Of a DNA stretch of 24,975 nucleotides, positions 11,422-24,449 are shown one piece after another. How positions within the stretch are numbered: position 1 is the stretch's first letter; each line of letters starts with the position of its first letter. A program made the position numbers and the translations under genes. Location: the NCBI GenBank assembly GCA_052121495.1, contig JBQKED010000046.1, one strand, 5' to 3'. The notes under the pieces are model-generated. The model searched no databases, had not been told where the DNA came from, and was given only the letters and a program-made list of their open reading frames with translations. This stretch comes from Faecalimonas sp. LCP19S3_D12. Its GTDB lineage: Bacteria > Bacillota > Clostridia > Lachnospirales > Lachnospiraceae.

Positions 11422-11454
11422 TTTCAGTTACGCAAGAGATAATCTTCGGAACTC

Positions 11455-11480: not shown

Positions 11481-11504
11481 CAAGGGTTTGTGGAGTTGTC
11501 AGAT

Positions 11505-11563
11505 GTGGTGAAAAGCGGTGGAATTTACTCAGTTCGCAACGCATTTGCAACACGTTTGCAACA
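11505..11563. repeat. Copy A of the att-like boundary block: GTGGTGA...TTCGCAAC-gca-TTTGCAAC-acg-TTTGCAAC-A, three 11-bp-phased TTTGCAAC repeats
   Basis: The last 23 nt are identical at 19 of 23 positions to blocks at 23607-23629 and 24377-24399. A GTGGTGA(A/G)(A/G)AG start is shared. The block lies at the junction between the rpsI terminator and the integrase. Confidence 0.55.
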
Positions 11564-11581
11564 AAAATATCTAAAAAATAT

Positions 11582-11625
11582 AGGACACTTTTCGGTGATA
11601 GACACTGGAGAGTGTCCTTTTTGTT
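11582..11625. terminator. Bidirectional terminator just inside the element's left end, serving int on the minus strand
   Basis: AGGACAC-23 nt-GTGTCCT. TTTTTGTT follows on the plus strand and ATATTTTTTAG on the minus strand. Confidence 0.6.
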
Positions 11626-12721
11626 ATGCGGATTTTGTATCGGCAGTTACGCTGTCCTCATTTTCTAAGGTTTTGTTGATTGCGTCTACAAGAACCTGCA
11701 TATCTAAGTGAGTATAAACTTTTTCTGTCAGTGTCATAGCGCCGGAGTGCCCCACAATTTTCTTGATTGTTGTATCCTGAACACCAGCTTCCGATAACAT
11801 GGAAATACAGGTATGCCGGGTACAATGTGGTGTGCGGTCAATTCCAATCTGTTCCACGAGAGGAGTCCAATAGCTGTCATAGTAATTGCGATAAAGAAAT
11901 CTTTTGCCATCCTCTGTATGAAGAAGATATTCGCAATCAGGACAAGACTCATACCAATCTTTATAGTAAGGCAAGAGCTTATCTGCAATCGGAACTTTTC
12001 GGATTCCATTTTCTGTCTTACTGTCAATCACATCAAAATACTGTTCTTCTAGATGCACGTTTTCTTTCTTCAAATCAAGAAATTCAGAGATGCGTGTACC
12101 ATTATAGAGCAGCATGAGGATGATCTGATAGTATTTGTCCTCTTTCATTGTCCAGACTTTTGCAACTTCTTCTTTCGTGAATTTTGTACGTGTATGCTTG
12201 TTTGGATTGCGGTCTTTGTACTGGGCGATCTCAACAAAAGTAGAATAATCTTTGTTGCAGATGTCATTCTTCAATGCAAATTCATATAACTGGTTGAACA
12301 GAATTTTAATTTTCTTCAATGTGGGAAAATTCTTTCCGCAGGTGTCAATAACCTGTTGTAAGTCTGCCAGTTTTAAATCCTTGAAAACTCGGTTGTAAAG
12401 AATGCCACATGTTTTATAAGAAGCCTTGTATCCTTTGATATTGCTTTCGGATACCGTAGGAAATTTTTTCTTTGACCATTCTTCATACACTTCATCAAAA
12501 GTCATTTTGGCTGCCTTCGTATCATAAGGATTCCGATTGTAATCAGCCAGCATTTGTAAGCCCTCTGTTTTTGTGGCGGCATATCCAATAATAATATATT
12601 CATTTACTTTCTTTTCTTTTACAGGATCAATGTGATAGCCGATGGTTTTACGAACCATCCAAGGTTTTCTTCTTTTTCCAGATAGTTTTACTACACTTCC
12701 GTAGCCGTTCGGTAATTTCAT
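11624..12721 (-). CDS. int: Tyrosine-type site-specific integrase (phage integrase family)
   Basis: C-terminal catalytic region TRISE...HCTRHTCISML...VGHSGAMTLTEKVYTHL (R...HxxR...Y). N-terminal arm-binding-like MKLPNGYGSVVKLSGKRRKPW. RBS GGAGG. Confidence 0.9.
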   Translation of the reverse strand: MKLPNGYGSVVKLSGKRRKPWMVRKTIGYHIDPVKEKKVNEYIIIGYAATKTEGLQMLADYNRNPYDTKAAKMTFDEVYEEWSKKKFPTVSESNIKGYKASYKTCGILYNRVFKDLKLADLQQVIDTCGKNFPTLKKIKILFNQLYEFALKNDICNKDYSTFVEIAQYKDRNPNKHTRTKFTKEEVAKVWTMKEDKYYQIILMLLYNGTRISEFLDLKKENVHLEEQYFDVIDSKTENGIRKVPIADKLLPYYKDWYESCPDCEYLLHTEDGKRFLYRNYYDSYWTPLVEQIGIDRTPHCTRHTCISMLSEAGVQDTTIKKIVGHSGAMTLTEKVYTHLDMQVLVDAINKTLENEDSVTADTKSA

Positions 12722-12744
12722 ATTCTAAAAATCCTCCTTAAAAA

Positions 12745-13356
12745 TTAGGACTCTTTCTTACCGTACCGCTCGTTCATAATTTTTTGAAATCTCTGGATTC
12801 GTTCTTCGTTTGAGATTTCTTCTGTTTCTTTTTCGGTCAGTTTTGCATTTGCGTAATAAGCAAGTGTTTTATCCTGCCACTTCTGATAAGATTCAAGACT
12901 TGTCTGATAGTCCTTGACTTCGTTTCTTTTATTCTCAAATTCTTCCAAGAATAGACAGAGATCTTGATTTAATTCCGTAGAAACATCTTTGCCATTAAAA
13001 GTAATAGCACATTCCCATCCATCATAATGTGGCGGGCGTTTGACTTCGATATTGAAGCCAAGTTCCTTTATCTTATCTAACTGAAATAAGAAATTCATAA
13101 TATCAGAAAGATTTTCTAAAGGTTTTCTCTCGGCATCATACCCTATAAGATATGTGGATTCGCAGTCTAAAACTTTTGCGATTTCATTGAGCATAGCGAT
13201 GGAAACTTCGATTTCTCCGCTTTCATATTTTTGGATTGTGCGAAGCGATTTCCCCAACAAATTTGCAAGCTCTGTTTGGTTGATACCTTTTTCTTTTCGA
13301 GCAGTACGGATTCTAAGTCCGATTTGATTGTTATGTAACTTCTCATTACTCATCAT
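12745..13356 (-). CDS. XRE-family HTH repressor (cI/Stl-like) with an uncharacterised ~130-aa C-terminal domain
   Basis: N-terminal HTH_3 LRIRTARKEKGINQTELANLLGKSLRTIQKYESGE. It is transcribed divergently from the cro-like gene, with int downstream in the same orientation. Confidence 0.8.
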   Translation of the reverse strand: MMSNEKLHNNQIGLRIRTARKEKGINQTELANLLGKSLRTIQKYESGEIEVSIAMLNEIAKVLDCESTYLIGYDAERKPLENLSDIMNFLFQLDKIKELGFNIEVKRPPHYDGWECAITFNGKDVSTELNQDLCLFLEEFENKRNEVKDYQTSLESYQKWQDKTLAYYANAKLTEKETEEISNEERIQRFQKIMNERYGKKES

Positions 13357-13384
13357 TATTCACCTCACGCTTATCATATCATAG

Positions 13385-13482
13385 AAAAATACGAATTACA
13401 AGTACATATTTATATAAAATAGTATTGACATGTGCAGAATAAGTGCATATAATAAAAATACGCATTAAAAGTACATATTAAA
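13385..13482 (+). promoter_or_regulatory. Lysis/lysogeny-type switch region: consensus promoter TTGACA-17-TATAAT (13425-13453) flanked by two 28-bp direct-repeat operator candidates
   Basis: AAAAATACGAATTACAAGTACATATTTA at 13385-13412 and AAAAATACGCATTAAAAGTACATATTAA at 13454-13481, about 24 of 28 identical. TTGACA at 13425-13430, a 17-nt spacer, TATAAT at 13448-13453. Confidence 0.65.
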
Positions 13483-13500
13483 AAAGAAAGGAGAAATAAA

Positions 13501-13710
13501 ATGAAGATAAACGTATTTAAAATGCAGATTTTGATGGAAGAAAGAGGATTAACAATTAAGAAATTGGCTGAGTTAAGTGGAGTGTCAAGGCAGACGATTT
13601 CCTGCATTATATCAGGAAAAAGCTGTACACCGCAGGTGGCATATAAAATTGCTACAGCTTTAGATCAAGAACTTAGTCAGATTGTAAAGGAGGACGTGGA
13701 AAATGGATAA
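13501..13710 (+). CDS. Cro-like small XRE-family HTH regulator
   Basis: 69 aa, LTIKKLAELSGVSRQTISCIISGK. RBS AAAGGAG. Confidence 0.75.
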   Translation: MKINVFKMQILMEERGLTIKKLAELSGVSRQTISCIISGKSCTPQVAYKIATALDQELSQIVKEDVENG

Positions 13711-13963
13711 AAGATTATATGTAGAATTGCCGCCATTTACGGGAAGAAATGTGCCGATTACAGAAATTGCAAAAGCAATCGGAAAAGATACTCATTACGT
13801 TCGTATCGGGATACAGCAGGGAATTTTGAAATTTGGAGTAGCAATGAAGATGGGGGATTCCAACGAATTCAGTTATTACTGTTCTGATCGTAAAGTATGG
13901 GAGGAAACTGGATATTTCAATGGAGAGGTAAAAAAGCAGGGAAAAGAAAAAGCCCTTGCGTAA
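13703..13963 (+). CDS. Small HTH protein, a candidate excisionase or recombination directionality factor
   Basis: 86 aa, VPITEIAKAIGKDTHYVRIGIQQGIL looks like an HTH. It overlaps the cro-like gene by 8 nt and occupies the xis position of int-repressor-cro-xis modules. Confidence 0.4.
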   Translation: MDKRLYVELPPFTGRNVPITEIAKAIGKDTHYVRIGIQQGILKFGVAMKMGDSNEFSYYCSDRKVWEETGYFNGEVKKQGKEKALA

Positions 13964-13987
13964 CACAAGGACAACTTCTCAGAGCTT

Positions 13988-14716
13988 TTGATAACTCTAT
14001 CTCGCAAATTCAGTATATCAAAGGCTCTGAGAGAATACAACGAAAATTTTAAAGGAGTCGAATTGAATATTTTTCAGGTAGTAAAAGAAAACGTAACTGC
14101 AAGGCAAGCAGCCGAACAGTACGGATTGAAAGTCAATAAAAACGGGATGATATGTTGCCCCTTTCATGATGACAGGCATCCCAGTATGAAAGTAGATAAA
14201 GGATTTTGCTGTTTTGCCTGTGGTGCGAAAGGGGATGTGATTACGTTTGTAGCAGATTTCTTTTATCTTACACCATTGGAAGCAGCAAAGAAACTGGCAG
14301 AAGATTTTCAGATACCAATCCTTGCGGATGACTCAAAGAAAAGGAATACCAGTAAGAAGAAAGAAAAACCAAAAAGAACGTTGTATCAGACCGAAAAGAA
14401 ATTTGAAGAATGGGAACGGGAAAGTATCCGTATTTTATCGGATTATCTTCATTTGCTGGAAGAATGGAAAATAAGATATGCACCGAAAACACCAGAGGAA
14501 GAATGGGAAGCAGAATTTATAGAAACCTGTCAGCAGATAGAAAAGATAAATTACTATCTGGATTTACTGGTGTTTGGAGAGTTACAGGACAGAATTGAAT
14601 TTTTACTGGATAGTGGGAAGGATGTGAAAAGAATTGAAGAACGAATGGAAAAATATAGACGAAACAACAAGGAACAGACTGGAAGAAGCATTGGATCAGA
14701 GAGAGATGAACTCTAA
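13988..14716 (+). CDS. CHC2 zinc-finger (primase-type) protein
   Basis: CPFHDDRHPSMKV...FCCFACGAKGDVITFV is a DnaG/P4-type CHC2 zinc finger. No Toprim domain is evident. Confidence 0.65.
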   Translation: MITLSRKFSISKALREYNENFKGVELNIFQVVKENVTARQAAEQYGLKVNKNGMICCPFHDDRHPSMKVDKGFCCFACGAKGDVITFVADFFYLTPLEAAKKLAEDFQIPILADDSKKRNTSKKKEKPKRTLYQTEKKFEEWERESIRILSDYLHLLEEWKIRYAPKTPEEEWEAEFIETCQQIEKINYYLDLLVFGELQDRIEFLLDSGKDVKRIEERMEKYRRNNKEQTGRSIGSERDEL

Positions 14717-16010
14717 GCCGTATTCTCAGGAATGGTTTGAGGATGGGCAGATTGATGAGGTGGCATTTTGTGAAAATTTCCTGCAAAGAATGCCATTGAA
14801 GTGTATCAACGGTATCTTTTTCAGCTATGATGGGATGCTGCCGGACAGCGAAGTAGAAAAAGAAATTTATAGAATGGTAAAACCGGTTCTTACGAAAGGA
14901 ATTTCTAAGAAAGTAAAACAGCTTTTGGAGGTTCTAAAATTGGAAGCCTATTCAGAGGAACTTCCGGTGCAAATGGATCGCATCCATGTGAATAATGGAA
15001 CTTATTTTCTGAGTGGCAGTTTTACAGAGAAGAAGGAGTTTTGCCTGAACCGATTGCCTGTAAATTATGAAATGAAAGAAGCAAAGCCGGAACGGTGGTT
15101 GAAATTTCTTTCAGAACTGTTGGAGGAAGATGATATTCCTACCTTGCAGGAATATATGGGATATTGCCTAATCCCATCCAATAAGGCACAGAAATTATTG
15201 ATTATCTTAGGAAAAGGAGGGGAGGGAAAATCCCGTATCGGTCTGGTTATGAGAAAAATCCTCGGAACGAATATGAATGTAAGCAATATTCAGAAAGTAG
15301 AACATAATCGTTTCGCAAGGGCGGATTTGGAATACTGGCTTTTAATGGTGGATGATGATATGAAACTGGAAGCCTTGAAAGACACCAACTATATTAAAAC
15401 CATAGTTACTCTGGAGGATAAGATGGATTTGGAAAGGAAGTCAAAGCAGAGCGTACAGGGGAATTTATATGTCAGATTTCTCTGCTTTGGAAACGGAAGT
15501 CTGAGTGCTTTACATGATCGTTCCTATGGATTTTATCGCAGACAGATTATCCTTACGGTCAAAGATGTGCCGCCAGACAGAGTAGATGATCCCTATCTGA
15601 TTGAGAAACTGCAAAGAGAAGCAGACGATATTTTTCTCTGGTGTCTGGAGGGATTGAAACGATTACTGAAAAATAAATACTGCTTTACCATCAGCGAACG
15701 TGCAAAGAAAAATCTACACGAAGCTATGGAATCCGGGAATAACATTATCGCTTTTATGCAGTCATCCGGGTATATCCGGTTGGAAGAAAATACAACAGTG
15801 ACTTCTAAGAATCTTTATCAAGCATACTGCCACTGGTGTGAGGACAATACGGAAAAGCCTATGAGTGCAAAAAGTTTTTCGGGGTACTTAAAAGAAAATG
15901 AAAAGAAGTATCACATTCATTATTCCACGAATATTCCCTCAGATAATGGAAAAAATGCCAGAGGATTTCAAGGAATTCATACGCAGATACGCATAGACAG
16001 CTATCGTTGA
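14706..16010 (+). CDS. P4-family/VirE-like primase C-terminal domain protein with a P-loop NTPase, a replication initiator or helicase
   Basis: Walker A LIILGKGGEGKS and Walker B LLMVDDDM. The first ATG at 14706 overlaps the upstream stop by 11 nt. The track's TTG start at 14634 was rejected. Confidence 0.65.
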   Translation: MNSKPYSQEWFEDGQIDEVAFCENFLQRMPLKCINGIFFSYDGMLPDSEVEKEIYRMVKPVLTKGISKKVKQLLEVLKLEAYSEELPVQMDRIHVNNGTYFLSGSFTEKKEFCLNRLPVNYEMKEAKPERWLKFLSELLEEDDIPTLQEYMGYCLIPSNKAQKLLIILGKGGEGKSRIGLVMRKILGTNMNVSNIQKVEHNRFARADLEYWLLMVDDDMKLEALKDTNYIKTIVTLEDKMDLERKSKQSVQGNLYVRFLCFGNGSLSALHDRSYGFYRRQIILTVKDVPPDRVDDPYLIEKLQREADDIFLWCLEGLKRLLKNKYCFTISERAKKNLHEAMESGNNIIAFMQSSGYIRLEENTTVTSKNLYQAYCHWCEDNTEKPMSAKSFSGYLKENEKKYHIHYSTNIPSDNGKNARGFQGIHTQIRIDSYR

Positions 16011-16048
16011 TACGGATGAAAAACAGATAAAAAAGAATTTTCCAAAGA

Positions 16049-16131
16049 AGCGTATAAGCGTATATCTTCAGGAAAATCAAGGGATTACAGGTTTCTGAAA
16101 AGTATTGAGGATACGTTTATACGCTTATACG
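16049..16131. repeat. Iteron-like inverted repeat, GCGTATAAGCGTATA ... TATACGCTTATACG, around an AT-rich spacer. Candidate replication origin
   Basis: The 14-15 bp arms at 16049-16063 and 16118-16131 are perfect reverse complements built from tandem GCGTATA heptamers. The site lies immediately 3' of the primase/NTPase gene, the usual ori position in PICI/IME replication modules. Confidence 0.45.
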
Positions 16132-16249
16132 GGTAATTTTTGAATTTATTTTATTTTTAGCAGGGGGAGTGTTGCAGATGTTAAAGCAGCCCGGATACGG
16201 GCAGATCAAAAGGGCGGATAAGCCCATAAATGAAATCTAAAGTCTGAGC

Positions 16250-16440
16250 AATAATCAGATTACGTAATACAAAAACAGCCCTCGGCGATTGAGAGTGAAA
16301 TACACCCATCGCATAAACTTCGTTTATGCTCTGCGTATTTCGCCCTGCCGGGAGCTATGCTGCCAATAGGCAGATAAGTTCGTAAACAGGTGCCTATGCA
16401 CCTACTCACAGCAAAATCGGCTAGAGCCGAGAAAGGAGGA
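16250..16440 (+). promoter_or_regulatory. Candidate oriT region upstream of the relaxase, with multiple short perfect hairpins
   Basis: GCATAAAC-ttcg-GTTTATGC at 16309-16328, AGGTGC-ctat-GCACCT, CTGCC-aata-GGCAG and GCCCG-gata-CGGGC. MobA/MobL (MOBQ) oriTs normally abut the relaxase gene. Confidence 0.35.
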
Positions 16441-17869
16441 TGCTTATAGGCAGACATTCATTTATCAGGAAAAGCAAGCTGTCTGATGTGGCAGGAAGGA
16501 TTGATTATATCTCCAATCCGAAACGACAGGAATATCTCTATGCGACCTATCAGACAGAAGGCGCAACACCGGAGTTTTGGAAACATCTTGCAAGAGAAAA
16601 TCAGTTGGACTTTAAGGCGAGTGGTTCAGCAGCAAATGTATCGAGGGGCGTGAGTTTATCATAGCGCTTCCCGAAAGTTTTGTTCAGTACAGGGCAGATG
16701 ATGTGGTAAGACTTTTTACGGAGACTTTTCATAAAAGATATGATGTGGAGTGCAGTGCAGCTCTTCATCACAATAAGGCAAAGACGAATTATCATATCCA
16801 TCTGGTATTCAGTGAACGGAAAATGTTGGAACAGCCCGAAGTAAAGATTGCTACCCGAAATATGTTTTATGATGAGCAGGGGAAGCATAGACGCACAAAG
16901 AAAGAGGTTTTAGACGAGCAGGGCAATCTTCGGGCGGGGTGCAGCATTATCCCCAAAGGGGAAGTTTATGAAAGCCATATCTTCACGAAAAAGGATGAAT
17001 GGTTTAAGAACAAAGCCTTTACCAAAGAAGTCAAGGAACTGTTTACCGATACGATCAACCGATATGTAAAAGAAGAATCAGAAAAACTGTCCGTATTCCA
17101 ACAGGGCGGAGTATATCTGGCAACCAAGAAAATCGGAAAGAACAATCCGAAAGCAGAGGAGATAAAGGCGGACAATGCGGCAAGGCAGGAATGGAATCGG
17201 ACAGTTGATGTGGCATTAGTCGAGGGTGTTCCCGAAGAAGATATTTTGAAGATTAAGCAGGAAAAAATCACAGACAAAACGATGCAATCTATCAGGACAC
17301 ACGGTTGGTTGCCGGATATGTTCCGTGAGATTATCCGAGGTGCGAAAGACTTTTTACAGGAAGTAATTTTCAAATTTAAGCTGCCGCCGAAACCTGTACC
17401 AAAGATTGATTTGCAGGAATGGAAAGATGTGCAGAAACTCATGTATGAATTACAGGGGCAGTCAAGGGAGATAAAACGCACACAGCAGGATATTTCTTCT
17501 TTGAAAAAGCAACTGTCAGAGTTACGAGGACTATTTAAAGGCAAAGAGCGAAAATCTCTGGAAGGGCGAATTGAACTGTTAGAGGATTTGGAAAAGCGTT
17601 TGCACAAGAGTTTGGAACAGATAGTAAAACGTGAGGGCTACCCTAATGTTCAAGCCTTTCAGAAGGTCTATAATAAGGCAGAAGAACTGATTATAGAATA
17701 CAATGAAGAACTAAGGGGATGGAAAAATCAGACGGAACAGAAGAAAGAGAAACCGTTAGAACAGCCGAAAAGAGCGAGCGTACTGGAAAAGCTACACCGC
17801 TATCAGCAGGAAGGCAGACAGCAACCAAAACGGTCAGTTAAGAAAAAATCTATGGATAGAGAACGATAA
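16440..17869 (+). pseudogene. MobA/MobL-family relaxase, frameshifted. The N-terminal 74 aa are in one frame and the rest is in the +2 frame from about 16616
   Basis: Frame A reads MLIGRHSFIRKSK...AGRIDYISNPKRQEY, the relaxase N-terminus with a candidate catalytic Tyr. The other frame, open from 16616, reads ...EGREFIIALPESF... (MobA motif II ExxxALPxE) ...ALHHNKAKTNYHIHLVFSER (motif III HxxxxxNxHxH). The frame switch must lie within 16616-16664. Confidence 0.7.
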
Positions 17870-17886
17870 GAAAGGTGGAAATGATT

Positions 17887-18000
17887 ATGAAGAAAACAAT
17901 ATTTGAAGAAATGGGCGGAACTTATATCAGACAAGGGGATTATCTTATCCCCTGTCTTACCTTGCCGGAGGAAGAAGGGCAGAGGTTTATAGGAGTATAG
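17887..18000 (+). pseudogene. Decayed 5' fragment of a small conserved mobile-element ORF (MKKTIFEEMGGTYIRQGDYLIPCLTLPEEE...)
   Basis: The 37-aa ORF ends at a TAG where, from recollection, related full-length proteins continue ...IGVWGQRH.... A second in-frame TGA follows 2 codons later. RBS AAAGGTGG. Confidence 0.3.
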
Positions 18001-18109
18001 GGACAATGAGAGGATTTATCAATAAGAAAAGGTTAATTTGTAACTAAAGTGATGTGATTTCTTGGGGATAAGATAAGATTGTAATTTAGTGAGAGTTTAT
18101 CTTTAGTAT

Positions 18110-18124
18110 TTGCGAAATTCGCAA
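18110..18124. promoter_or_regulatory. 15-bp palindrome TTGCGAA-A-TTCGCAA with an extra TTGCGA half-site 5 bp downstream. Candidate operator for the cargo operon
   Basis: Perfect 7-bp arms. Located about 40 bp upstream of the predicted -35 of the cargo-operon promoter. Confidence 0.4.
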
Positions 18125-18162
18125 TTTCTTGCGAGTTTTGCTTTATATAATGGGGAAAAATC

Positions 18163-18191
18163 TTGCTGAAATTGTCAAAAAAATGTATAAT
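18163..18191 (+). promoter_or_regulatory. Promoter TTGCTG-17-TATAAT for the cargo operon
   Basis: TTGCTG at 18163-18168, a 17-nt spacer, TATAAT at 18186-18191, and RBS GGAGG before the ATG at 18221. Confidence 0.55.
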
Positions 18192-18220
18192 AAATTATAT
18201 TATCGAATTGGAGGCGCAGT

Positions 18221-18439
18221 ATGAGGATAAATTATAAAAAGTTGTGGATATTACTCGCTGAACGTGAAATAGCTCCTGCTACGCTAAGGAAAGATTTAAA
18301 TATTGCAACAGGAACAATGACAAAGTTGCGACGCAATGAAGAAGTTGCAATTTCAATACTTCTACGTATATGTGAATATTTAGATTGTAATATTGGCGAT
18401 ATATGTGATGCGATGAAAAATAATGTGGAATCAATATAA
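18221..18439 (+). CDS. Small XRE/Cro-type HTH transcriptional regulator, first gene of the cargo operon
   Basis: 72 aa, LLAEREIAPATLRKDLNIATGTMTKLRRNEEV forms an HTH. Confidence 0.65.
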   Translation: MRINYKKLWILLAEREIAPATLRKDLNIATGTMTKLRRNEEVAISILLRICEYLDCNIGDICDAMKNNVESI

Positions 18440-18468
18440 AGATTATATTTAATTGGAGGGGCAGACAA

Positions 18469-19731
18469 ATGGTAGGTTTACAAATAGGAAATGATGAAGA
18501 AATTCTCATAGAATCATCGGGAGTTTGGTGGATTTCTAAACTAAGAAATCTAAATCAACATTTTAATGTGCTTGTGCTTACTAATAAAAGAATATATGGA
18601 GTTTATCAAAAAAGTAATGGGCTTTTTAAAAAAGCTAGCGAAGAATTAGAGGAATTAGATTTGGCCGATATAAAAATAAGCAATAATCAGCCAATGGTAT
18701 TAAAAAAATGGGATTTTAATAGTTTTAGTTGCTCTCTTGAAATACAGACAATTCAGGGATTACATACATTTATGTTTCAAGAATCAGCTAAAAAGAATGC
18801 AGCATTATGGGAGAAAGAGATTTTCAGAGTTTTTGGTTTGGAAAGGGAGGACGATTGCGAATCTAATGTAACGGCAAGTAGTTTTTCAGGAATTGCAGCA
18901 AGTTTAAAAGGTGCTGCGGGAGCAGTTTTGAATAGAGCGACTAATCAAGGTAAGCTGAATAATGTCAAATCGGCATCAGGTGATGAAGAAAATGAAAATC
19001 CTATAGAAGAATTTTCAGAAATTCCGCCTATTCCGAATGTTCAACCATCGAAAGGATCATATTGTTCGAATTGTGGGACAAAACTTAATGTAGGAGCCAA
19101 ATTCTGCCATAGCTGTGGTGCAACAGTTACTGGAGGTATTTCGCCAACACCACCGACTCCACCTAAGCATAGTAGCACAGGAAATTACTCTTCTCGTGTT
19201 CATGAATTTGCAGGTACGGTCTTAAAATGCCCAAATTGTGGTAATGTGATTAGTGCTATTGATGCTGTTTGTCCAGCTTGTGGGATGCATATTACAGGGA
19301 AATCTGCGAGTGGAACTGTTCAAAAGTTCTCTGATGCGTTGATGGAAATAGAGAAAGTTAAAGTGGTAGAGAATAAAGGAGGGCTTTTTGCACAAGTAGG
19401 ATATGAAGAACGAGTTAGAAATGCGTATGCTACATATTACAGTCAAAAACTTACGTTGATTCGTACATTTCCGATTCCTAATACAGTAGATGAAATTTAT
19501 GAGCTAATGTTATTGGCAACAACTAATATTGATGTGAAATTATCAAAGAATACGTTATGGAGCAAAATTGATAATTCGGGTAGCTCTGGAAAAGAAGTTT
19601 CAGATGCTTGGATACAAAAAATGCGTCAGGCATATCAAAAAGCTGTTATTTCATTTCCGAATGATCCAGTTTTTACTCACATACAAAAAATATATTATGA
19701 TAAAATGAATGAATTGAGAATAGAACCTTAA
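18469..19731 (+). CDS. Protein with an N-terminal bacterial PH/GRAM-like domain, a central double zinc ribbon and an uncharacterised C-terminal domain. Tentatively YdjG-like
   Basis: ...NVLVLTNKRIYGVY... is the bPH signature. CSNCGTKLNVGAKFCHSCG and CPNCGNVISAIDAVCPACG are two CxxC-n-CxxC ribbons. A PTPPTPP linker joins them. RBS GGAGGGG. Confidence 0.55.
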   Translation: MVGLQIGNDEEILIESSGVWWISKLRNLNQHFNVLVLTNKRIYGVYQKSNGLFKKASEELEELDLADIKISNNQPMVLKKWDFNSFSCSLEIQTIQGLHTFMFQESAKKNAALWEKEIFRVFGLEREDDCESNVTASSFSGIAASLKGAAGAVLNRATNQGKLNNVKSASGDEENENPIEEFSEIPPIPNVQPSKGSYCSNCGTKLNVGAKFCHSCGATVTGGISPTPPTPPKHSSTGNYSSRVHEFAGTVLKCPNCGNVISAIDAVCPACGMHITGKSASGTVQKFSDALMEIEKVKVVENKGGLFAQVGYEERVRNAYATYYSQKLTLIRTFPIPNTVDEIYELMLLATTNIDVKLSKNTLWSKIDNSGSSGKEVSDAWIQKMRQAYQKAVISFPNDPVFTHIQKIYYDKMNELRIEP

Positions 19732-19766
19732 AAATAGATGTTTTCAGCGGGAAAGGGAGAGAGATT

Positions 19767-21089
19767 ATGGCATTGTTTGGAAGGCCTAGAGCAGGCGGAT
19801 TTATGGATGAAATAAGATGTGATGAACCTTCGTATTTGATTTGGAAATGGCATCCACAAGGCTCTCGAGTTGGATATAATAATAGAGAAAATGCGATTCG
19901 TTGGGGATCTTCGTTAAGAGTTAAAGACGGAGAGGTTGCAGTTTTTGTTTACAAACAGAGAAATGGTATAATGCAGGATTTTATAGAGGGACCGTTTGAC
20001 CAACCTATAAAAACTGCGAATTTTCCCGTACTTGCAAGTATTATGGGATTAGCTTATGAAGGTGGCACGCCATTTCAGGCAGAGGTTTACTTTATTAACC
20101 TTTCTCGGATTATACAGGTTAAGTTTGGTGTTCCGTTTTTTGACATTTATGATCCGAGATTTATGGATTTTGGTGTTCCGGTAGCAGTACGCGGGACTAT
20201 AAGTTTTAGTATTGCTGATTATCGAGAGTTCATCAAATTACATAGATTGAATAGTTTTAGTTTGGATGATTTTCAAAGACAAATTAGAGATGCTGTTAGT
20301 AGATATGTGAAAGATGTTGTCGCAAATGCTCCTGCACAGAACAATATTCCGCTTATCCAAATTGAGACAAAGACTGCACAAATTAATGATGTAATTGAAA
20401 TGGATATTAGAGAAAGGTTGAAGGATAGTTTTGGTGTCAATGTTTCAGGTGTTGATATTGGAGCAATAGAACTTGATAAAACAAGTAAAGGTTATAGACA
20501 ATTGATGGCTGTAACTAAGGATATGGCAACGATTAGGACACAGGCTGAGATGGAAGATTATGTTGAAAGATTACGTATTCAACGAGAAGAAGGACAGTAT
20601 GCACAACATAAAGCTACACAAACTGTTAATATTGGTGCTTTCCAAGTTGAAAAACAGGCAGAGGTTGGTGTTGCTGGTGCAGAAGCCCTTGGACAGATGG
20701 GGGCAAATGGTGCGGGAAATATTAATTTAGGTGGAAGCAGTAGTGGAGATGGATTCAATATGGCCGCAATGATGGCAAGTATGGCAGTAGGTGGAGCCGT
20801 TGGGCAGAATATTGCGGGTTCTATGAATAATATAATGTCAGGGATAAACCAGCCAATTCAAAGCGGAATGACACCACCGCCAGTACCTAATGTAATGTAT
20901 CATGTTGCGACAAATGGACAAGCAACAGGTCCATTTGATCTTAATACTTTAAAACAGATGGCGATTGCCGGGCAGTTTACAGCAGATAACTTAGTGTGGA
21001 AAGTAGGTATGGCTGAATGGGAGAAAGCAGGAACGATTGATGAATTGAAGTCGATGTTTGTGGTTATTCCACCGATACCGCCAATGTAA
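19767..21089 (+). CDS. SPFH/Band-7 superfamily protein of the YdjI/COG4260 (virion-core-like) type, with a Gly/Ala/Met-rich disordered linker and a C-terminal DUF4339 (GYF-like) domain
   Basis: The N-terminus MALFGRPRAGGFMDEIRCDEPSYLIWKWHP... follows the COG4260 pattern. The C-terminus YHVATNGQATGPFDLNTLKQMAIAGQFTADNLVWKVGMAEWEKAGTIDEL matches DUF4339. RBS GGGAGAGAG. Confidence 0.55.
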   Translation: MALFGRPRAGGFMDEIRCDEPSYLIWKWHPQGSRVGYNNRENAIRWGSSLRVKDGEVAVFVYKQRNGIMQDFIEGPFDQPIKTANFPVLASIMGLAYEGGTPFQAEVYFINLSRIIQVKFGVPFFDIYDPRFMDFGVPVAVRGTISFSIADYREFIKLHRLNSFSLDDFQRQIRDAVSRYVKDVVANAPAQNNIPLIQIETKTAQINDVIEMDIRERLKDSFGVNVSGVDIGAIELDKTSKGYRQLMAVTKDMATIRTQAEMEDYVERLRIQREEGQYAQHKATQTVNIGAFQVEKQAEVGVAGAEALGQMGANGAGNINLGGSSSGDGFNMAAMMASMAVGGAVGQNIAGSMNNIMSGINQPIQSGMTPPPVPNVMYHVATNGQATGPFDLNTLKQMAIAGQFTADNLVWKVGMAEWEKAGTIDELKSMFVVIPPIPPM

Positions 21090-21114
21090 GATAAGTATGT
21101 GCAGGAGGAGAAGT

Positions 21115-21897
21115 ATGGAATTTAATTTTTTGCTAGAAAACACAATAGATAAGATACAGAATTTACAGGAGTATTACGAAAAACAAATTTCGAATATAGA
21201 AACACGATTAAAAGCTGAAAAGGAAAAATATAAATACGGTGTTTTACTTGACAAATATTTTTTTAGTAAAAGTATGGATATAGAAGATGAATTGACAGAA
21301 GAAGAAATATCAGAGGTAAATAAAATCGTTGAAACTTGTGATGTGGGAAAAAGAGAAGACGGAGTGGTAGTTCGCTATAAATTAAAAAATATATCGGATT
21401 TAGATAAAAAATATGAGTTGGATCCACGTATAGCAACTCGTGAGTATTTTAAATTATTTGAACAGCCGAGAATTCATAGTGAGTCCACATTGATGATGTT
21501 ATTAATTCGTTATGAAGAAGCTATATCAGGTATCTTTAAATATATTTTAATGAAATATCCAGAAGCTTATTTAAAGGAAAAAACTATTACATATTCAGAA
21601 TTAATGTCTATTGATACAGATATCGCGGAAGTAAAAAAACATTTTATTGAAAAAGAAGCGGAAGATTTTATGAGACTGCCTATTGGAGAGTGGTATAATA
21701 CTTTTGTGCAAAAGCATAAAGTAAAGTTTGATTTTGGAGATGATGAATTTGAAAAATTTAAAGAAGTATATTATCGAAGAAATTTGATAGTGCATAATCA
21801 GGGAAAAGTTAATGAAATTTATTTGAAAAGTATTGATCCGTGTTTAAGTGGTAGTGCACAAAAAGGACAGATACTGGATGTTGATAGAGAATATTAA
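21115..21897 (+). CDS. Hypothetical protein with an HEPN-like Rx4H motif (YYRRNLIVHNQG) near its C-terminus. It may be the N-terminal part of a longer gene split by an in-frame TAA
   Basis: RBS GGAGGAG before the ATG at 21115. The reading frame stays open through the TAA at 21895-21897 for another 570 nt. Confidence 0.5.
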   Translation: MEFNFLLENTIDKIQNLQEYYEKQISNIETRLKAEKEKYKYGVLLDKYFFSKSMDIEDELTEEEISEVNKIVETCDVGKREDGVVVRYKLKNISDLDKKYELDPRIATREYFKLFEQPRIHSESTLMMLLIRYEEAISGIFKYILMKYPEAYLKEKTITYSELMSIDTDIAEVKKHFIEKEAEDFMRLPIGEWYNTFVQKHKVKFDFGDDEFEKFKEVYYRRNLIVHNQGKVNEIYLKSIDPCLSGSAQKGQILDVDREY

Positions 21898-21948
21898 AAA
21901 AATGCATTTGAACATACTCAAATAATTCTGTATGGGACATTTTGGGCC

Positions 21949-22467
21949 TTGAGAAAATTATCGAAAGAGAAGGAAAAACTTGAGAATCGTATATTTGAAA
22001 AAGGGTTCATTCATATGTTAAATGCAGAGTGGAGATTAAGTGAATACATATACAATCTTATGATGAAGGAAAAAGAGCAAAGTGACGCAGATAAATTATG
22101 TAATAAGGTAAACTATTGGATATCTGTAAAAAATCAAGGACGTTTGCCGAGTATTGAAGAAGAAATTCAAAAGCTAGATGTTTCCGCTACAGCGGGGCAG
22201 TTTAAGGTCGCAAAGTATGCATTATTAGATGATTTTGAAAAAGTATCGGAATTATTAGAAGATATTATTGGAACTGAAATACCAGCATGTTATGTGGAAC
22301 AATGGCCATTGTTCATTCAATATCGTCAAAGCGATGAGTATAAGAAATTTAGGAATAAACATATGGAAGAATTCGAAAAGTTGGGATATCAACCAGAATA
22401 TATGGAAATGGATTCTCATGAAGATGTTACGGATGAATTTGGTGATGACATGGAGACTATTTGTTAA
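21949..22467 (+). CDS. Hypothetical protein in the same frame as the upstream ORF. Either its C-terminal continuation (pseudogene or read-through) or a separate ~151-aa gene starting at the ATG at 22014
   Basis: There is no stop between 21898 and 22467 in this frame. The track start is a TTG with no RBS. The ATG at 22014 has a weak AAAGGG 9 nt upstream. Confidence 0.4.
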   Translation: MRKLSKEKEKLENRIFEKGFIHMLNAEWRLSEYIYNLMMKEKEQSDADKLCNKVNYWISVKNQGRLPSIEEEIQKLDVSATAGQFKVAKYALLDDFEKVSELLEDIIGTEIPACYVEQWPLFIQYRQSDEYKKFRNKHMEEFEKLGYQPEYMEMDSHEDVTDEFGDDMETIC

Positions 22468-22563
22468 TTAAATACATATACTATCTTATTGTTGTCTGTT
22501 GAAAGCGATTTTCTTGGGAGAAGGAAATCCTAAAGGTAAAATATATTTGAAGGGAAGAGATGA

Positions 22564-23550
22564 ATGGAGAATAAAATTACCGCATTAGACAATTTAATAA
22601 AGATTATAGAAAATTCAAGAAATACTGCATTAAAAAAGGTAAATGAAGAGCTTATTAAAATGTATTGGAATGTAGGTGAATATTTAAACAGAGAATCTAG
22701 GAATGTAGCTTTTGGAGATGCATATATTGATTCGGCTGTTAATGAAATTCAAAATGCTTTTCCAGGAATTAAAGGCTTTAACCGACGTGGGCTTTATAGA
22801 ATGAAGCAGTTTTATGAAACTTATTGTGAAGATGAATTTGTGTCAGCACTGCTGACACAAATTAGTTGGACGAATCATTTGACAATTATGTCAAAAGCAA
22901 AAACTGTAGAAGAAAGACATTTTTATATTACACTTTGTATCAAAGAGTCGTATTCTTCGAGGGAATTAGAACGCCAGATTAATAGCGGCTATTATGAACG
23001 GTATATGCTTTCACAAGAAAAACTCTTACCAGAACCGATAAAAGGATTGAAAGATAATCCATTTTTAGATTCGTACATCATAGAATTCCTCGACTTGCCA
23101 AAGAATTTTAAAGAGTCGGATTTGAGAAAAGGTCTGATTCAGAATATGAAAGAATTCATTCTGGAAGTAGGTAAGGATTTTACATTTATTGATGAAGAAT
23201 ATAGAGTGCAAGTAGGAGGAGAAGATTTTCGGATTGATTTACTGTTTTTCCACAGAGGTCTGCAATGTTTGGTGGCTTTTGAATTGAAGATTGGAAAATT
23301 CAAACCGGAATATATTTCTAAAATGGATTTCTATTTGGAAGCATTAGATCGTCAAAAGAAAAAAGAGAATGAAAATCCGAGCGTGGGAATGATTCTGTGT
23401 GCATCTAAGGATGATGAAGTTGTAGAATATGCCATGAGCAGAACCATGTCTCCGATGATGGTTGCTGAATACAAGTTGCAATTACCGGATAAAACTGTAT
23501 TACAGAAAAAATTGCAGGAATTAATCAATATGCCTTTGTTGGAGGAATAA
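22564..23550 (+). CDS. YhcG/DUF1016-family protein: an N-terminal DUF1016 domain plus a C-terminal PD-(D/E)xK nuclease domain
   Basis: ...FRIDLLFFHRGLQCLVAFELKIGKFKPEYISKMDFYLEALD...NPSVGMILCASKDDEVVEYA is the characteristic YhcG D...ELK core. Confidence 0.75.
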   Translation: MENKITALDNLIKIIENSRNTALKKVNEELIKMYWNVGEYLNRESRNVAFGDAYIDSAVNEIQNAFPGIKGFNRRGLYRMKQFYETYCEDEFVSALLTQISWTNHLTIMSKAKTVEERHFYITLCIKESYSSRELERQINSGYYERYMLSQEKLLPEPIKGLKDNPFLDSYIIEFLDLPKNFKESDLRKGLIQNMKEFILEVGKDFTFIDEEYRVQVGGEDFRIDLLFFHRGLQCLVAFELKIGKFKPEYISKMDFYLEALDRQKKKENENPSVGMILCASKDDEVVEYAMSRTMSPMMVAEYKLQLPDKTVLQKKLQELINMPLLEE

Positions 23551-23571
23551 ATATAATTCTGTCTATAAGGT

Positions 23572-23629
23572 GTGGTGAGGAGTAATGAGAAGTAATGAGA
23601 AGGCCTGCGTTTGTAACGTGTTTGCAACA
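23572..23629. repeat. Copy B of the att-like block, the right boundary of the element. It contains a 10-bp tandem duplication AGTAATGAGA x2
   Basis: GTGGTGAGGAGTAATGAGAAG(TAATGAGAAG)GCCTGCGTTTGTAACGTGTTTGCAACA. It is nearly identical to copy C apart from the duplication and one mismatch. Confidence 0.55.
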
Positions 23630-23763
23630 CCACATTTCAAGAACCCAGTAAAATCAAGCATTCCCAGTTACCAAAACGTTAATTATACGTTTTTGGAACG
23701 TACAATTTCAAAAAGAATTTTCGACTCCTCAGGACTTTGGTTCTGGGGAGTTTTTTGTTCTAA

Positions 23764-24234
23764 ATGACATTAGGGGAGTTTGGAACACTGTTCGATTGTG
23801 CTTCGACAAACGTTAAACTGTATGTTTCCAAAATCATGAAATTGCCTACAAATCTAGATTCAGATGGTTTTATAACAAAATTTTTTATTTTTACTATAAA
23901 AGATTTGAGAAATGCGGTTGCACATAATAATGTGATTTTTGATACGAGATTTAAGACGGGGAAAATAGATAAAAGATTAGTTAATTTACTTGAAAAAGAA
24001 GTGGGAGTTTCTAATCTGAATTTCAATTATATGGATGCGTATGTAATTATGATTACATATTTTTTGAGGAAAATGGGAGAAACAAAAACTTCATGCAAAC
24101 AGTTTGTTGCTGCATATCAACAACAAACTGAATATCTGAGAAATGAATTGCCTATTGGTGTGTGCAATCAAATACTGGGAACTCAACACAGAAGTAATAT
24201 AAATACTCTTCAAAAATTTATCAGTAAATCGTAG
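23764..24234 (+). pseudogene. 5'-truncated Abi_2 (AbiD/AbiF-type, HEPN) abortive-infection gene remnant
   Basis: MTLGEFGTLFD... corresponds to the mid-protein SFGTLSKxY motif. DLRNAVAHNNVIFDTR matches the R[ND]xxxH HEPN motif. The N-terminal ~130 aa expected for this family are absent, and no RBS is present. Confidence 0.55.
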
Positions 24235-24310
24235 AAAGACTTGCATATTTGGAAGAGAAGATGTATCTTATATATAAGAATTGCGGTGGATGTCTTCGGA
24301 CTACACCTAA

Positions 24311-24346
24311 GGGAACCTGATGCGTCGGGTTCCTTTTGCATTTATT
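24311..24346 (+). terminator. Hairpin GGAACC-n10-GGTTCC followed by a T-rich tract
   Basis: The stem sits at 24312-24317 and 24328-24333, followed by TTTTGCATTTATTT. Confidence 0.4.
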
Positions 24347-24351
24347 TGGGG

Positions 24352-24399
24352 GTGGTGAGGAGTAATGAGAAGTCCTGCGTTTGTAACGTGTTTGCAACA
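24352..24399. repeat. Copy C of the att-like block, an orphan or outer boundary at the chromosome junction
   Basis: GTGGTGAGGAGTAATGAGAAGTCCTGCGTTTGTAACGTGTTTGCAACA. Confidence 0.55.
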
Positions 24400-24402
24400 G
24401 AA

Positions 24403-24432
24403 AAAGAAACAATTGTGTTTGGCAATTGTTCC
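24403..24432 (-). terminator. Rho-independent terminator of the Rrf2 gene, on the minus strand
   Basis: Read on the minus strand: AACAATTG-ccaaaca-CAATTGTT followed by TCTTTTTCT. Confidence 0.6.
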
Positions 24433-24449
24433 TTTAAAGTTACAATATT

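What the first reader, a model, noticed from the sequence alone, without database searches (positions are those of the whole stretch)
11505..24399. Three copies of a ~50-58 bp block ending in 11-bp-phased TTTG(C/T)AAC repeats bracket the element and a second 0.8 kb remnant, pointing to tandem accretion at one att hotspot downstream of rpsI
What the sequence shows:
- Copy A (11505-11563) is directly next to the integrase.
- Copy B (23572-23629) closes the 12 kb element.
- Copy C (24352-24399) lies 0.8 kb further on, after a 5'-truncated Abi_2 gene.
- B and C are nearly identical, except that B carries a 10-bp tandem duplication (AGTAATGAGA x2).
- A shares the GTGGTGA(A/G)(A/G)AG start and 19 of the last 23 nt with B and C.
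- The repeat units TTTGCAAC contain the palindrome TTGCAA and are spaced one helical turn apart. Copy A has three and copies B and C have two.

Inference:
- The helical-turn phasing is typical of integrase arm-type or Xis/RDF binding sites, not of coding sequence.
- The layout chromosome-A-element-B-Abi remnant-C-chromosome fits two successive integrations at one site, with the older element largely deleted.
Basis: seen in the sequence. Interest (0 to 1): 0.6.

Follow-up and report, generated by a model that had tools for sequence, protein, structure and literature searches.

The report
Integrase docking repeats flanking rpsI insertion site
The three repeat blocks are the protein-docking "arms" of a 12 kb mobile element inserted at the stop codon of the ribosomal gene rpsI in a gut Lachnospiraceae bacterium, plus one leftover arm from an older decayed element. 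This is a familiar kind of system, but its attachment site seems to carry two alternative crossover points.

Summary
Blocks A (11505-11563), B (23572-23629) and C (24352-24399) exist as described, and the 11-bp-phased TTTG(C/T)AAC doublet is absent from shuffled sequence.

The blocks are not the element boundaries. Contigs encoding an identical RpsI diverge immediately after the rpsI stop codon. The true junction is a 13-bp direct repeat, CAAAACGTTAATT (11411-11423 and 23672-23684). The element spans 11424-23684 (12,261 bp), so A and B both lie inside it, as the P' and P arms of attP.

- The integrase model has a small N-terminal sheet-plus-helix domain.
- The 23-nt word occurs in 88 stretches of genomes, mostly labelled Lachnospiraceae. 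Apart from three matches it lies beside an integrase 3' end or about 42 bp before a pseudo-rpsI end.
- Integrase lineages 62-70% identical keep three repeats in the P' arm at an 11-bp period but use a different word. The two lineages whose far end was recovered also keep two repeats in the P arm.

Block C is the truncated P arm of an integrase-less cassette carrying an AbiD fragment, so tandem accretion is supported.

Integration at the rpsI 3' end with accretion is already known in streptococci. The less expected feature is an attP with two tandem pseudo-rpsI ends, apparently used alternately according to the host's rpsI codons.

The parts
11029..11421 (+). rpsI (ribosomal protein S9), the target gene. 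Its last codons and stop form the attachment core.
   Evidence: Pfam Ribosomal_S9, E 1.9e-50. An identical protein is listed in 6548 blocks of the assembly collection.
11404..11423 (+). attL core c1, CAGTTCTCAAAACGTTAATT. The perfect 13-bp direct repeat is 11411-11423. The rpsI stop is 11419-11421.
   Evidence: Loci with identical RpsI diverge right after TAA. The core pattern gives 2 matches against 0.07 expected. The strain polymorphism C[A/T]AAACG is carried on both attL and attR.
11425..11443 (+). c2, a second pseudo-rpsI end (CAGTTACGCAAGAGATAAT) 21 bp after c1. It belongs to the element and is the junction actually used in hosts whose rpsI ends ...AAGAGATAA.
   Evidence: Tile pairs are listed.
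11490..11527 (+). R1 repeats of the P' arm (GTGGAG 11490, GTGAAA 11508, GTGGAA 11518).
   Evidence: Read from the sequence. The motif recurs in all P' subfamilies, but overall identity is only 0.59.
11505..11563 (+). Block A, the distal part of the P' arm. It holds three R2 repeats, TTCGCAAC/TTTGCAAC/TTTGCAAC, at 11533, 11544 and 11555.
   Evidence: It is conserved next to the integrase 3' end in 44 junctions.
11582..11618 (+). Terminator-like hairpin between block A and the integrase stop. On the + strand it would end rpsI read-through.
11624..12721 (-). Tyrosine integrase, 365 aa, with three predicted domains: N-terminal sheet-plus-helix, core-binding, catalytic.
   Evidence: Pfam Phage_integrase, E 3e-22. 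AF2 model, pLDDT 80. Foldseek top hits are Tn1549 Int and lambda Int.
12745..17869 (.). Regulation, replication and mobilisation module: HTH repressor (12745-13356, minus strand), Cro-like HTH (13501-13710), CHC2 primase (13988-14716), D5/DUF5906 helicase (14634-16010), MobA/MobL-like protein (16703-17869).
18221..23550 (+). Cargo: HTH_26, zinc-ribbon protein, SPFH-GYF protein, two unknowns, and a YhcG/DUF1016 nuclease (PADLOC candidate defence family PDC-S02).
23567..23664 (+). P arm of attP. It contains block B (23572-23629), with R1-like TGAGGAG/TGAGAAG x3 (one extra from a private 10-bp duplication) and R2 TTTGTAAC 23610 and TTTGCAAC 23621, followed by a conserved 35-bp spacer.
   Evidence: Conservation profile of 53 distinct P arms: sharp onset at GAGGTG, continuing to the core. 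None of the 52 other P-type blocks in the species genomes shows the duplication.
23665..23684 (+). attR core c1, CAGTTACCAAAACGTTAATT. The direct repeat is 23672-23684. This is the right end of the 12,261-bp element (11424-23684).
23685..23757 (+). Left end of the integrase-less cassette: ATACGTTTTTGGAACG... plus a terminator hairpin at 23723-23752. The same sequence follows rpsI directly in L003 and L004, which makes them empty sites for the 12 kb element.
23764..24234 (+). 3' fragment of an Abi_2/AbiD-type abortive-infection gene. About 130-150 N-terminal profile positions are missing.
   Evidence: Pfam Abi_2 profile positions 133-184 of 184. PADLOC AbiD positions 154-253 of 277.
24340..24399 (+). 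Block C, a truncated P arm of the cassette (R2 at 24380 and 24391). The spacer, core and about 520 bp of native flank that follow it in L003 and L006 are missing.
   Evidence: Homology to L003/L006 P arms covers 24340-24399. Chromosomal homology resumes at 24398.
24403..24857 (-). Chromosomal flank: terminator (24403-24435) and the Rrf2-family regulator (24450-24857).

Best explanation
The window is a whole contig of a Faecalimonas sp. (Lachnospiraceae). It carries a 12.3 kb integrative, probably mobilisable, element inserted by a tyrosine integrase at the stop-codon region of rpsI.

In the excised circle the attachment site attP would read: block B, 35-bp spacer, core c1, core c2, about 60-bp spacer, block A, integrase 3' end. 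That is roughly 260 bp. Blocks A and B are therefore the two arms of attP. Each holds 11-bp-phased direct repeats (R2 = TTTG(C/T)AAC), three in the P' arm and two in the P arm. The most likely role of R2 is as arm-type sites bound by the small N-terminal domain of the integrase, while its other domains act at the core, as in lambda-type heterobivalent integrases. A second set of ~10-bp-phased repeats (R1) beside them may bind the same protein or an accessory or excision factor.

Block C is the P arm of an older, integrase-less cassette. Relatives of this cassette carry ToxIN; here it carries an AbiD fragment. It occupied the site first and was pushed downstream when the 12 kb element integrated at rpsI. 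Its own right-hand core has since been deleted.

Shown: the boundaries, the internal position of A and B, the link of the blocks to att contexts across genera, and the covariation of the repeat word with integrase lineage. Inferred: which protein binds R2 and R1, and current mobility.
For: Boundaries:
- Eleven contexts with identical RpsI diverge right after TAA.
- There is a 13-bp direct repeat, or 20 bp with 2 mismatches.
- The window sequence after attR is colinear with the sequence after rpsI in L003 and L004, which makes them empty sites for the element.

Blocks belong to the element:
- The block word occurs in 88 stretches of GTDB species genomes, mostly labelled Lachnospiraceae.
- Matches fall into two classes. 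One lies next to an integrase 3' end. The other lies about 42 bp before a pseudo-rpsI end.
- P-arm conservation starts sharply at GAGGTG and runs to the core.

Arm-type reading:
- The integrase model has strands at residues 9-12, 21-32 and 37-48 and a helix at 51-61, ahead of the core-binding and catalytic domains.
- Full-length lambda Int aligns over 362-379 columns.
- Integrases 62-70% identical, found by protein search rather than by the DNA word, all sit next to rpsI. They carry three 11-bp-period repeats at the same place with other words: AACTAACA, TAA(G/A)CA(G/A)CA, AAGGA(G/A)CA.
- For two of these lineages the far end was recovered. It has two copies of the lineage's own word about 38-50 bp before the core.

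Accretion:
- L002, L003, L006, L015, L016 and L082 show the same cassette type with ToxIN, ending in a P arm plus core.
Against: - No binding or excision data exist.
- Pfam finds no arm-binding domain in the N-terminus.
- Covariation with integrase lineage would also be produced by a co-inherited excisionase or regulator.
- R1 is only modestly more conserved than the neighbouring spacer, 0.59 against 0.52.
- The high R2 identity among the closest subfamilies is partly an ascertainment effect of the search pattern.
- A search for the P-c1-c2-P' junction in metagenomes gave one contig that ends at the junction, so a circle and a tandem array cannot be told apart.
Confidence: 0.72

Rival explanations
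1. The blocks are themselves the att crossover sites that bracket the element, with A on the chromosomal side.
For: They lie near both ends, and B and C are nearly identical.
Against: - Sequence diverges between strains at the rpsI stop, 82 bp left of A.
- A, and the 80 bp before it, move with the integrase into at least 20 species of other genera with different rpsI codons.
- A perfect 13-bp repeat flanks the element elsewhere.
- A and B share only 19 of 23 nt at their best part.
Confidence: 0.02
2. R2 and/or R1 are binding sites for an element-encoded excisionase (RDF) or HTH regulator rather than for the integrase.
For: - Head-to-tail phased repeats are also typical of winged-helix Xis proteins (established knowledge).
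- The element has several small or HTH proteins of unknown role: 13501-13710, 13703-13963, 18221-18439.
- The arms contain two different repeat families, so at least two binding activities are plausible.
Against: - To my knowledge, RDF sites normally lie in one arm only, whereas R2 lies in both arms in a 3+2 pattern like lambda P'1-3 and P1-2.
- Integrase-less cassettes keep the P-arm repeats.
- No recognisable Xis family was found.
Confidence: 0.17
3. The phased repeats are iterons of a replication origin for the element's primase-helicase.
For: The element encodes a CHC2 primase and a D5-like helicase, and iterons are phased direct repeats.
Against: - The repeats lie at both extremities, beside the att core, not beside the replication genes.
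- They are kept by cassettes with no replication genes.
- They covary with the integrase in lineages that have different replication modules: AAA_25/DnaB-like in L108 and L111, primase-polymerase in L114.
- A better origin or oriT candidate exists at 16030-16152 (I2/I5).
Confidence: 0.04
4. The block is a dispersed REP-like or otherwise non-functional repeat.
For: The word is widespread, in 88 stretches of the species genome collection.
Against: All but three matches (L042, L049, L065) lie in one of two fixed att contexts. Orientation and distance to the core are constant. Only 2 matches were found in IMG/VR.
Confidence: 0.01

Closest known systems
Streptococcal IMEs and ICEs integrated in the 3' end of rpsI (IMESag-rpsI; integrase families Tyr_4, Tyr_5, Tyr_7 of Coluzzi et al. 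2017, PMC5357655; PMC5090054)
   Same: - A tyrosine integrase targets the 3' end of rpsI.
- Direct repeats include the gene end.
- Tandem accretion with other and decayed elements at rpsI is explicitly reported.
- A relaxase-type gene is present and no conjugation pore genes were recognised.
   Different: - The host family is Lachnospiraceae (Clostridia).
- Relatedness of this integrase to Tyr_4/5/7 was not tested.
- The element has a primase-helicase module and a lambda-like repressor/Cro pair.
- Arm repeats and tandem pseudo-cores were not mentioned in the passages of those papers that I read.
Lambda-type heterobivalent integrase with arm-type sites (P1, P2 / P'1-P'3)
   Same: - Three-domain integrase.
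- attP of about 260 bp.
- Two repeats in one arm and three tandem repeats in the other, tens of bp from the core.
- The integrase gene's 3' end faces attP.
   Different: - Binding is not shown.
- All repeats are in the same orientation.
- An extra repeat family (R1) accompanies R2 in both arms.
- No recognisable Xis.
- Two candidate crossover cores.
CIME / accretion-mobilisation model of ICESt1 and ICESt3 in Streptococcus thermophilus
   Same: An integrase-less element flanked by att sequences sits next to an element with a cognate integrase at the same target. In L089/L082 the composite lies between one pair of outer cores.
   Different: The cassettes keep only the P-arm repeats. In this window the cassette has lost its right-hand core, so it cannot be excised on its own.
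Phage-inducible chromosomal islands (PICI / SaPI)
   Same: Gene order of integrase, repressor, Cro-like protein and primase/helicase, with insertion at a conserved gene end.
   Different: - It carries a MobA/MobL-like gene.
- No packaging or capsid-redirecting genes were recognised.
- The block word has only 2 matches in IMG/VR.

Membership tests
Integrative mobilisable element at the rpsI 3' end | Tyrosine (or serine) integrase at one extremity | tested here: met
   Pfam Phage_integrase, E 3e-22, 365 aa, intact.
Integrative mobilisable element at the rpsI 3' end | Direct repeats at both ends that include the 3' end of the target gene, with an empty site in relatives | tested here: met
   The 13-bp repeat lies at 11411-23 and 23672-84. 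L003 and L004 have rpsI followed directly by the sequence found after attR.
Integrative mobilisable element at the rpsI 3' end | Own relaxase/oriT but no mating-pore genes | tested here: inconclusive
   The MobA_MobL hit sits exactly at the Pfam cut-off (26.7 bits, E 6e-6). Related elements in L002 and L108 have clear PF03389 proteins. No type IV secretion domains were found among the ORFs scanned.
Integrative mobilisable element at the rpsI 3' end | Excision and transfer demonstrated | not testable with these tools
   The evidence is indirect only. Near-identical P' arms occur in many genera, and the 99%-identical integrase cluster has 3563 member sequences.
Lambda-type heterobivalent integrase / arm-type sites | Separate N-terminal arm-binding domain (three-stranded sheet plus helix) | tested here: inconclusive
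Lambda-type heterobivalent integrase / arm-type sites | Repeated sites in both arms of attP, distant from the core | tested here: met
   Three R2 repeats lie 110-140 bp right of c1, and two lie 45-62 bp left of it.
Lambda-type heterobivalent integrase / arm-type sites | Site sequence specific to the integrase (covaries with it) | tested here: met
   Three further integrase lineages have the same architecture with different words in the P' arm, and two of them in both arms.
Lambda-type heterobivalent integrase / arm-type sites | Integrase binds the sites and needs them for recombination | not testable with these tools
   Requires biochemistry or genetics.
REP-like dispersed repeat | Many copies scattered in intergenic regions independent of mobile elements | tested here: not met
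   Of 93 matches in the species genomes, all but three lie in the two att contexts. Within the window the only copies are A, B and C.
CIME (integrase-less element bounded by att sites) | Both att sites present, no recombinase | tested here: not met
   In this window the right-hand core is deleted: copy C abuts the Rrf2 terminator at 24398-24399. The feature is met by the ToxIN cassettes of L003, L006, L015 and L082.

The most novel reading that the evidence does not exclude
The attP of this element family carries two tandem, complete pseudo-rpsI ends. One subfamily carries three. They are c1 (...AAACGTTAAT) and c2 (...AAGAGATAAT), 21 bp apart, which is two helical turns. The integrase appears to cross over at whichever one matches the synonymous codons of the host's rpsI end. 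This would let one element colonise genera whose target gene ends differently.

- Hosts with AAACGTTAA: attL = rpsI(c1)-c2-P' and attR = P-c1-B'. This is the case in the window and in L002.
- Hosts with AAGAGATAA: attL = rpsI(c2)-P' and attR = P-c1-c2-B'. Four contiguous pairs show this, including Blautia caecimuris DSM 29492.
- One array (L089/L082) has a cassette inserted at c1 while the element itself used c2.

I found no description of such a multi-core attP in a full-text search. That search does not prove novelty.
Probability: 0.5. Interest if true: 0.55.

Novelty: new member of a known kind. Interest (0 to 1): 0.4.

Why it matters
The result fixes the real boundaries and anatomy of a mobile-element family that is very widespread in human and animal gut Lachnospiraceae. 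The 99%-identical integrase cluster alone has 3563 member sequences.

It shows that the rpsI stop region is a shared landing pad in these bacteria. Elements and integrase-less cassettes stack up there, carrying ToxIN, an AbiD-type gene fragment, SIR2 or the candidate defence family PDC-S02.

It gives a concrete, testable map of an attP: core, two arm repeat sets, 3+2 sites, and lineage-specific words. Such a map could be used to delimit these islands automatically, or to build integration tools for Clostridia that are hard to manipulate genetically.

If the two-core attP is functional, it would be a simple way for a site-specific element to widen its host range across synonymous variants of a protein-coding target.

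Tried and rejected
- tRNA or tmRNA gene as target: none in the window.
- Known RNA family in the blocks: only a T-box leader elsewhere.
- Exact look-up of the Rrf2 flank: it gave only a 1.1 kb contig identical to the window, so no empty site from that side.
- The 261-aa gene after rpsI in L004 as the intact version of the Abi fragment: there is no DNA similarity, and the Abi fragment has no match in L002-L008.
- Pfam search of the integrase N-terminus at E up to 10: no arm-binding family.
- IMG/VR scan for the block: 2 hits, so the elements are not generally called viral.
- Metagenome scan for the P-c1-c2-P' junction, to find circular forms: one contig that ends at the junction, uninformative.
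- 'CATACG...terminator' after the right core as the native rpsI terminator: rejected. In the closest relatives the sequence after the last core is TTCAAGGTTATCAG..., and the same sequence follows c2 in another genus. The terminator piece is therefore more likely the left end of the cassette family. How that cassette first arose remains unresolved.
- Far end of the most distant lineage (P0061, L114): not reached within 10 kb.
Full report
**1. Checking the observation**

- B equals C apart from a 10-bp tandem duplication (AGTAATGAGA) and one substitution.
- A shares the GTGGTGA start and 19 of its last 23 nt with B and C.
- The TTTG(C/T)AAC units follow each other at 11-bp intervals. A has three (11533, imperfect TTCGCAAC; 11544; 11555). 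B has two (23610, 23621). C has two (24380, 24391).
- A doublet of this unit with one mismatch allowed is found four times in the window and never in 100 shuffles.

rplM and rpsI end at 11421. A 365-aa tyrosine integrase lies on the minus strand at 11624-12721. Next come a repressor/Cro-like pair, a CHC2 primase, a D5-type helicase, a MobA/MobL-like protein and cargo. After B there is a 3' fragment of an Abi_2/AbiD gene, and after C an Rrf2 regulator. An exact protein look-up identifies the window as a whole 24,975-bp contig of a Faecalimonas sp..

**2. Where the element really ends**

I fetched ten large contigs that encode exactly the same RpsI and lined up the DNA after the gene. The sequences diverge immediately after the TAA stop, not at block A.
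- Contigs with the same integrase (L002, L008) share the 82 bp between the stop and block A.
- Contigs without it have entirely different sequence from the first base after the stop.

The 3' end of rpsI is repeated at the far end of the element. CAGTTCTCAAAACGTTAAT at 11404-11422 matches CAGTTACCAAAACGTTAAT at 23665-23683, which is 2 matches against 0.07 expected. The perfect direct repeat is 13 bp: CAAAACGTTAATT at 11411-11423 and 23672-23684.

A strain polymorphism inside it (C[A/T]AAACG) is A on both sides in the window and T on both sides in L002. This is what one expects of the exchanged core.

What follows the right-hand repeat (23685-23757) is colinear with what follows rpsI directly in L003 and L004. 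These are therefore empty sites with respect to the 12 kb element.

The element is 11424-23684 (12,261 bp). Blocks A and B are both inside it. A lies 82 bp from the left junction, and B ends 42 bp before the right-hand repeat.

**3. What the blocks are**

I scanned one genome per species (GTDB collection) for GYRTTTGYAACRYGTTTGCAACA. This gave 88 stretches, mostly labelled Lachnospiraceae: Blautia, Mediterraneibacter, Dorea, Faecalimonas, [Ruminococcus] torques, Merdimonas, Anaerostipes, Roseburia, Oribacterium and others.

The matches fall into two classes.
- One class, like A, always lies just before the 3' end of an integrase gene, with rpsI 130-200 bp upstream.
- The other class, like B and C, is followed after a conserved 35-bp spacer by a pseudo-copy of the rpsI end.

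Only three matches lack either context: L042, L049 and L065. The block is therefore not a dispersed repeat.

A conservation profile of 53 distinct B-type ends rises sharply at GAGGTG, about 30 nt left of the repeats. It stays high through the spacer to the core and collapses after TAAT. The conserved unit is thus the whole P arm plus core, about 110 bp, not the 48-58 bp block alone.

Joined as in an excised circle, the site reads: P arm (B), core, P' arm (A), integrase 3' end. That is about 260 bp, the size and layout of a classical attP.

**4. Evidence that the repeats are arm-type sites**

- Integrase architecture. The AlphaFold model (24-sequence alignment, mean pLDDT 80) shows three parts. 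The first is a small N-terminal domain of three strands (9-12, 21-32, 37-48) and a helix (51-61). It is set off by a low-confidence linker from a helical core-binding domain and the catalytic domain. Modelling the domain alone gives the same result at pLDDT 82.5.
- Comparison of lineages, which is stronger. Within the pattern-selected set, integrases of the P' subfamilies are 75-89% identical. The DNA between core and block has diverged (mean pairwise identity 0.52), while the R2 region is 0.84. That contrast is partly forced by the search pattern.
- A pattern-independent test. I took more distant integrases from the protein search (62-70% identity) and located them by exact look-up. All lie next to rpsI. 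Each carries, at the same place before the integrase terminator, three direct repeats at an 11-bp period, but with a different word:
  - AACTAACA in the P0092 lineage.
  - TAA(G/A)CA(G/A)CA in the P0107 lineage.
  - AAGGA(G/A)CA in P0061.
- Far ends. For two of these lineages the far end lay within reach. It has two copies of that lineage's own word, 38-50 bp before a pseudo-rpsI end.

The number of repeats (3 + 2), their period, position and orientation are kept, while the word changes with the integrase. The N-domains differ at strand residues. This is the signature expected of a protein-specific binding site.

It does not prove that the protein is the integrase rather than a co-inherited excision factor. 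I give that rival about 0.17.

**5. The second repeat set**

The left half of each block holds another phased motif.
- Block A: GTGGAG, GTGAAA and GTGGAA at 11490, 11508 and 11518.
- Blocks B and C: TGAGGAG and TGAGAAG at a 10-bp period.

The private 10-bp duplication in B adds a third unit and shifts the spacing by one helical turn. None of the 52 other P-type blocks in the species genomes has this duplication. The motif recurs across subfamilies, but the region is only slightly more conserved than the spacer, 0.59 against 0.52. Its role is open.

**6. Copy C and accretion**

Homology between the window and its closest relatives (L003, L006; flanks 95-97% identical) covers 24340-24399, matching their P arm. 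It then resumes at 24398 with the Rrf2 terminator.

In L003 and L006 the P arm is followed by the spacer, a core, and about 520 bp beginning TTCAAGGTTATCAG.... In the window these are missing, so C is a P arm cut off right after its last repeat.

In those relatives, the unit between rpsI and that P arm is an integrase-less cassette with this order:
- the core;
- 'CATACG...' plus a terminator hairpin;
- ToxI repeats and ToxN;
- a P arm and a core.

The same cassette type recurs after a core in L002, L015, L016 and L082. The window carries the equivalent unit, with an AbiD fragment in place of ToxIN.

It matches what is described for streptococcal IMEs and ICEs at rpsI: 'tandem accretion', and 'many with decayed elements' (PMC5357655).

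**7. An unexpected detail: two crossover cores**

In the window the rpsI end (c1, ...AAACGTTAAT) is followed after two bases by a second pseudo-end. This is c2, CAGTTACGCAAGAGATAAT, at 11425-11443, 21 bp downstream of c1.

- Across the collection, 18 integrase-proximal junctions have rpsI ending ...AAGAGATAA (or AAGCGATAA) joined directly to the element's P' sequence, with no c1. Another 25 have a c1-type rpsI end followed by c2.
- In four cases both ends lie on adjacent tiles of one contig: L019/L080, L052/L094 (Blautia caecimuris DSM 29492), L099/L034 and L089/L082. All four are hosts with AAGAGATAA. All four have attL = rpsI(c2)-P' and attR = P-c1-c2-B'.
- The window and L002, hosts with AAACGTTAA, have attL = rpsI(c1)-c2-P' and attR = P-c1-B'.

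Both patterns follow from a single attP, P-c1-c2-P', with crossover at the core that matches the host.

In L089/L082 a ToxIN cassette sits at c1 while the element as a whole is bounded by c2. Both cores have therefore been used in one array.

One subfamily has three pseudo-ends (AAACGTTAA, AAGCGTTAA, AAGAGATAA). One pair (L086/L018) has a single hybrid core, so cores seem to be gained and lost.

I regard functional dual cores as plausible, at about 0.5, but not shown. I found no description of this in the literature search.

**8. Comparison with what is known, and verdict**

Several features are established:
- integration of tyrosine-integrase elements in the 3' end of rpsI;
- direct repeats that include the gene end;
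- tandem accretion;
- arm-type sites in attP, which are textbook for lambda-type integrases.

This is a new member of that kind, in gut Lachnospiraceae. The map is well resolved and the attP may have two cores. The arm-site inference and the accretion idea hold. The boundaries, and the statement that the blocks bracket the element downstream of rpsI, do not.

Noticed in passing
L007, L009, L010, L011 (10350-10400 and downstream): A second, unrelated kind of element (ParA/ParB, SpaA-like surface protein, T4SS genes in L010) is also inserted at rpsI. It replaces the last 40 nt or more of the gene with its own higher-GC synonymous version ending ...AAGAGATAA or ...AAGCGCTAA. In these strains the rpsI end has therefore been rewritten by the element.
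   Followed up: partly
L005 10394-13631: A 3.2 kb integrase-less insert encodes an AAA_21 ATPase and a 265-aa protein. It is flanked by 21-bp copies of the rpsI end (CACAGTTCTC[A/T]AAACGTTAAT) and has no TTTGCAAC block. A Tn916-like element follows it.
   Followed up: partly
window 16030-16152: Nested inverted and direct repeats (AAGCGTATAAGCGTATA ... TATACGCTTATACG) lie just downstream of the helicase gene and upstream of the MobA/MobL-like gene. This is a candidate replication origin or oriT of the element.
   Followed up: no
window 13385-13488: Two 35-nt direct repeats (83% identical, 69 bp apart) lie in the divergent region between the repressor-like and Cro-like HTH genes. They look like operators.
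   Followed up: no
window 22564-23550; L002, L003, L111, L108: The cargo next to the P arm is repeatedly a defence or candidate-defence gene: YhcG/DUF1016 (PADLOC PDC-S02, E 1e-123) here and in L108, ToxIN in L002/L003, a SIR2_2 protein in L111, and an AbiD fragment in the cassette. The rpsI site acts as a defence-gene hotspot.
   Followed up: partly
window 23581-23600: The 10-bp tandem duplication in block B is private to this element; none of the 52 other P-type blocks in the species genomes has it. It lengthens the arm by about one helical turn.
   Followed up: yes
L017 (P' arm): One element has four TTTG(C/T)AAC units in its P' arm instead of three, so the repeat number varies by whole 11-bp units.
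   Followed up: no
window 6119-6369: A T-box leader (Rfam RF00230, 111 bits) lies upstream of the tyrosyl-tRNA synthetase gene (6530-7753). This is ordinary.
   Followed up: no
window 10332-10573 versus L002/L003 4514-9545: Relatives carry a roughly 4.7 kb insert between the amylase gene and rplM. It encodes an 895-900-aa protein, ScmC and PqqD-like proteins, and looks like a peptide-modification cluster. It is absent from the window.
   Followed up: no
L042 (Planctomycetota MAG), L049 (Roseburia hominis MAG), L065: These are matches to the 23-nt word without a following rpsI-type core. L049 and L065 look like truncated P arms, similar to copy C. L042 has no recognisable context and may be chance or contamination.
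   Followed up: partly
L061, L066, L073: These contigs have complete att contexts but are labelled Chlamydiaceae, Oscillospiraceae and Bacillus MAGs. They are probably mis-binned Lachnospiraceae contigs.
   Followed up: no
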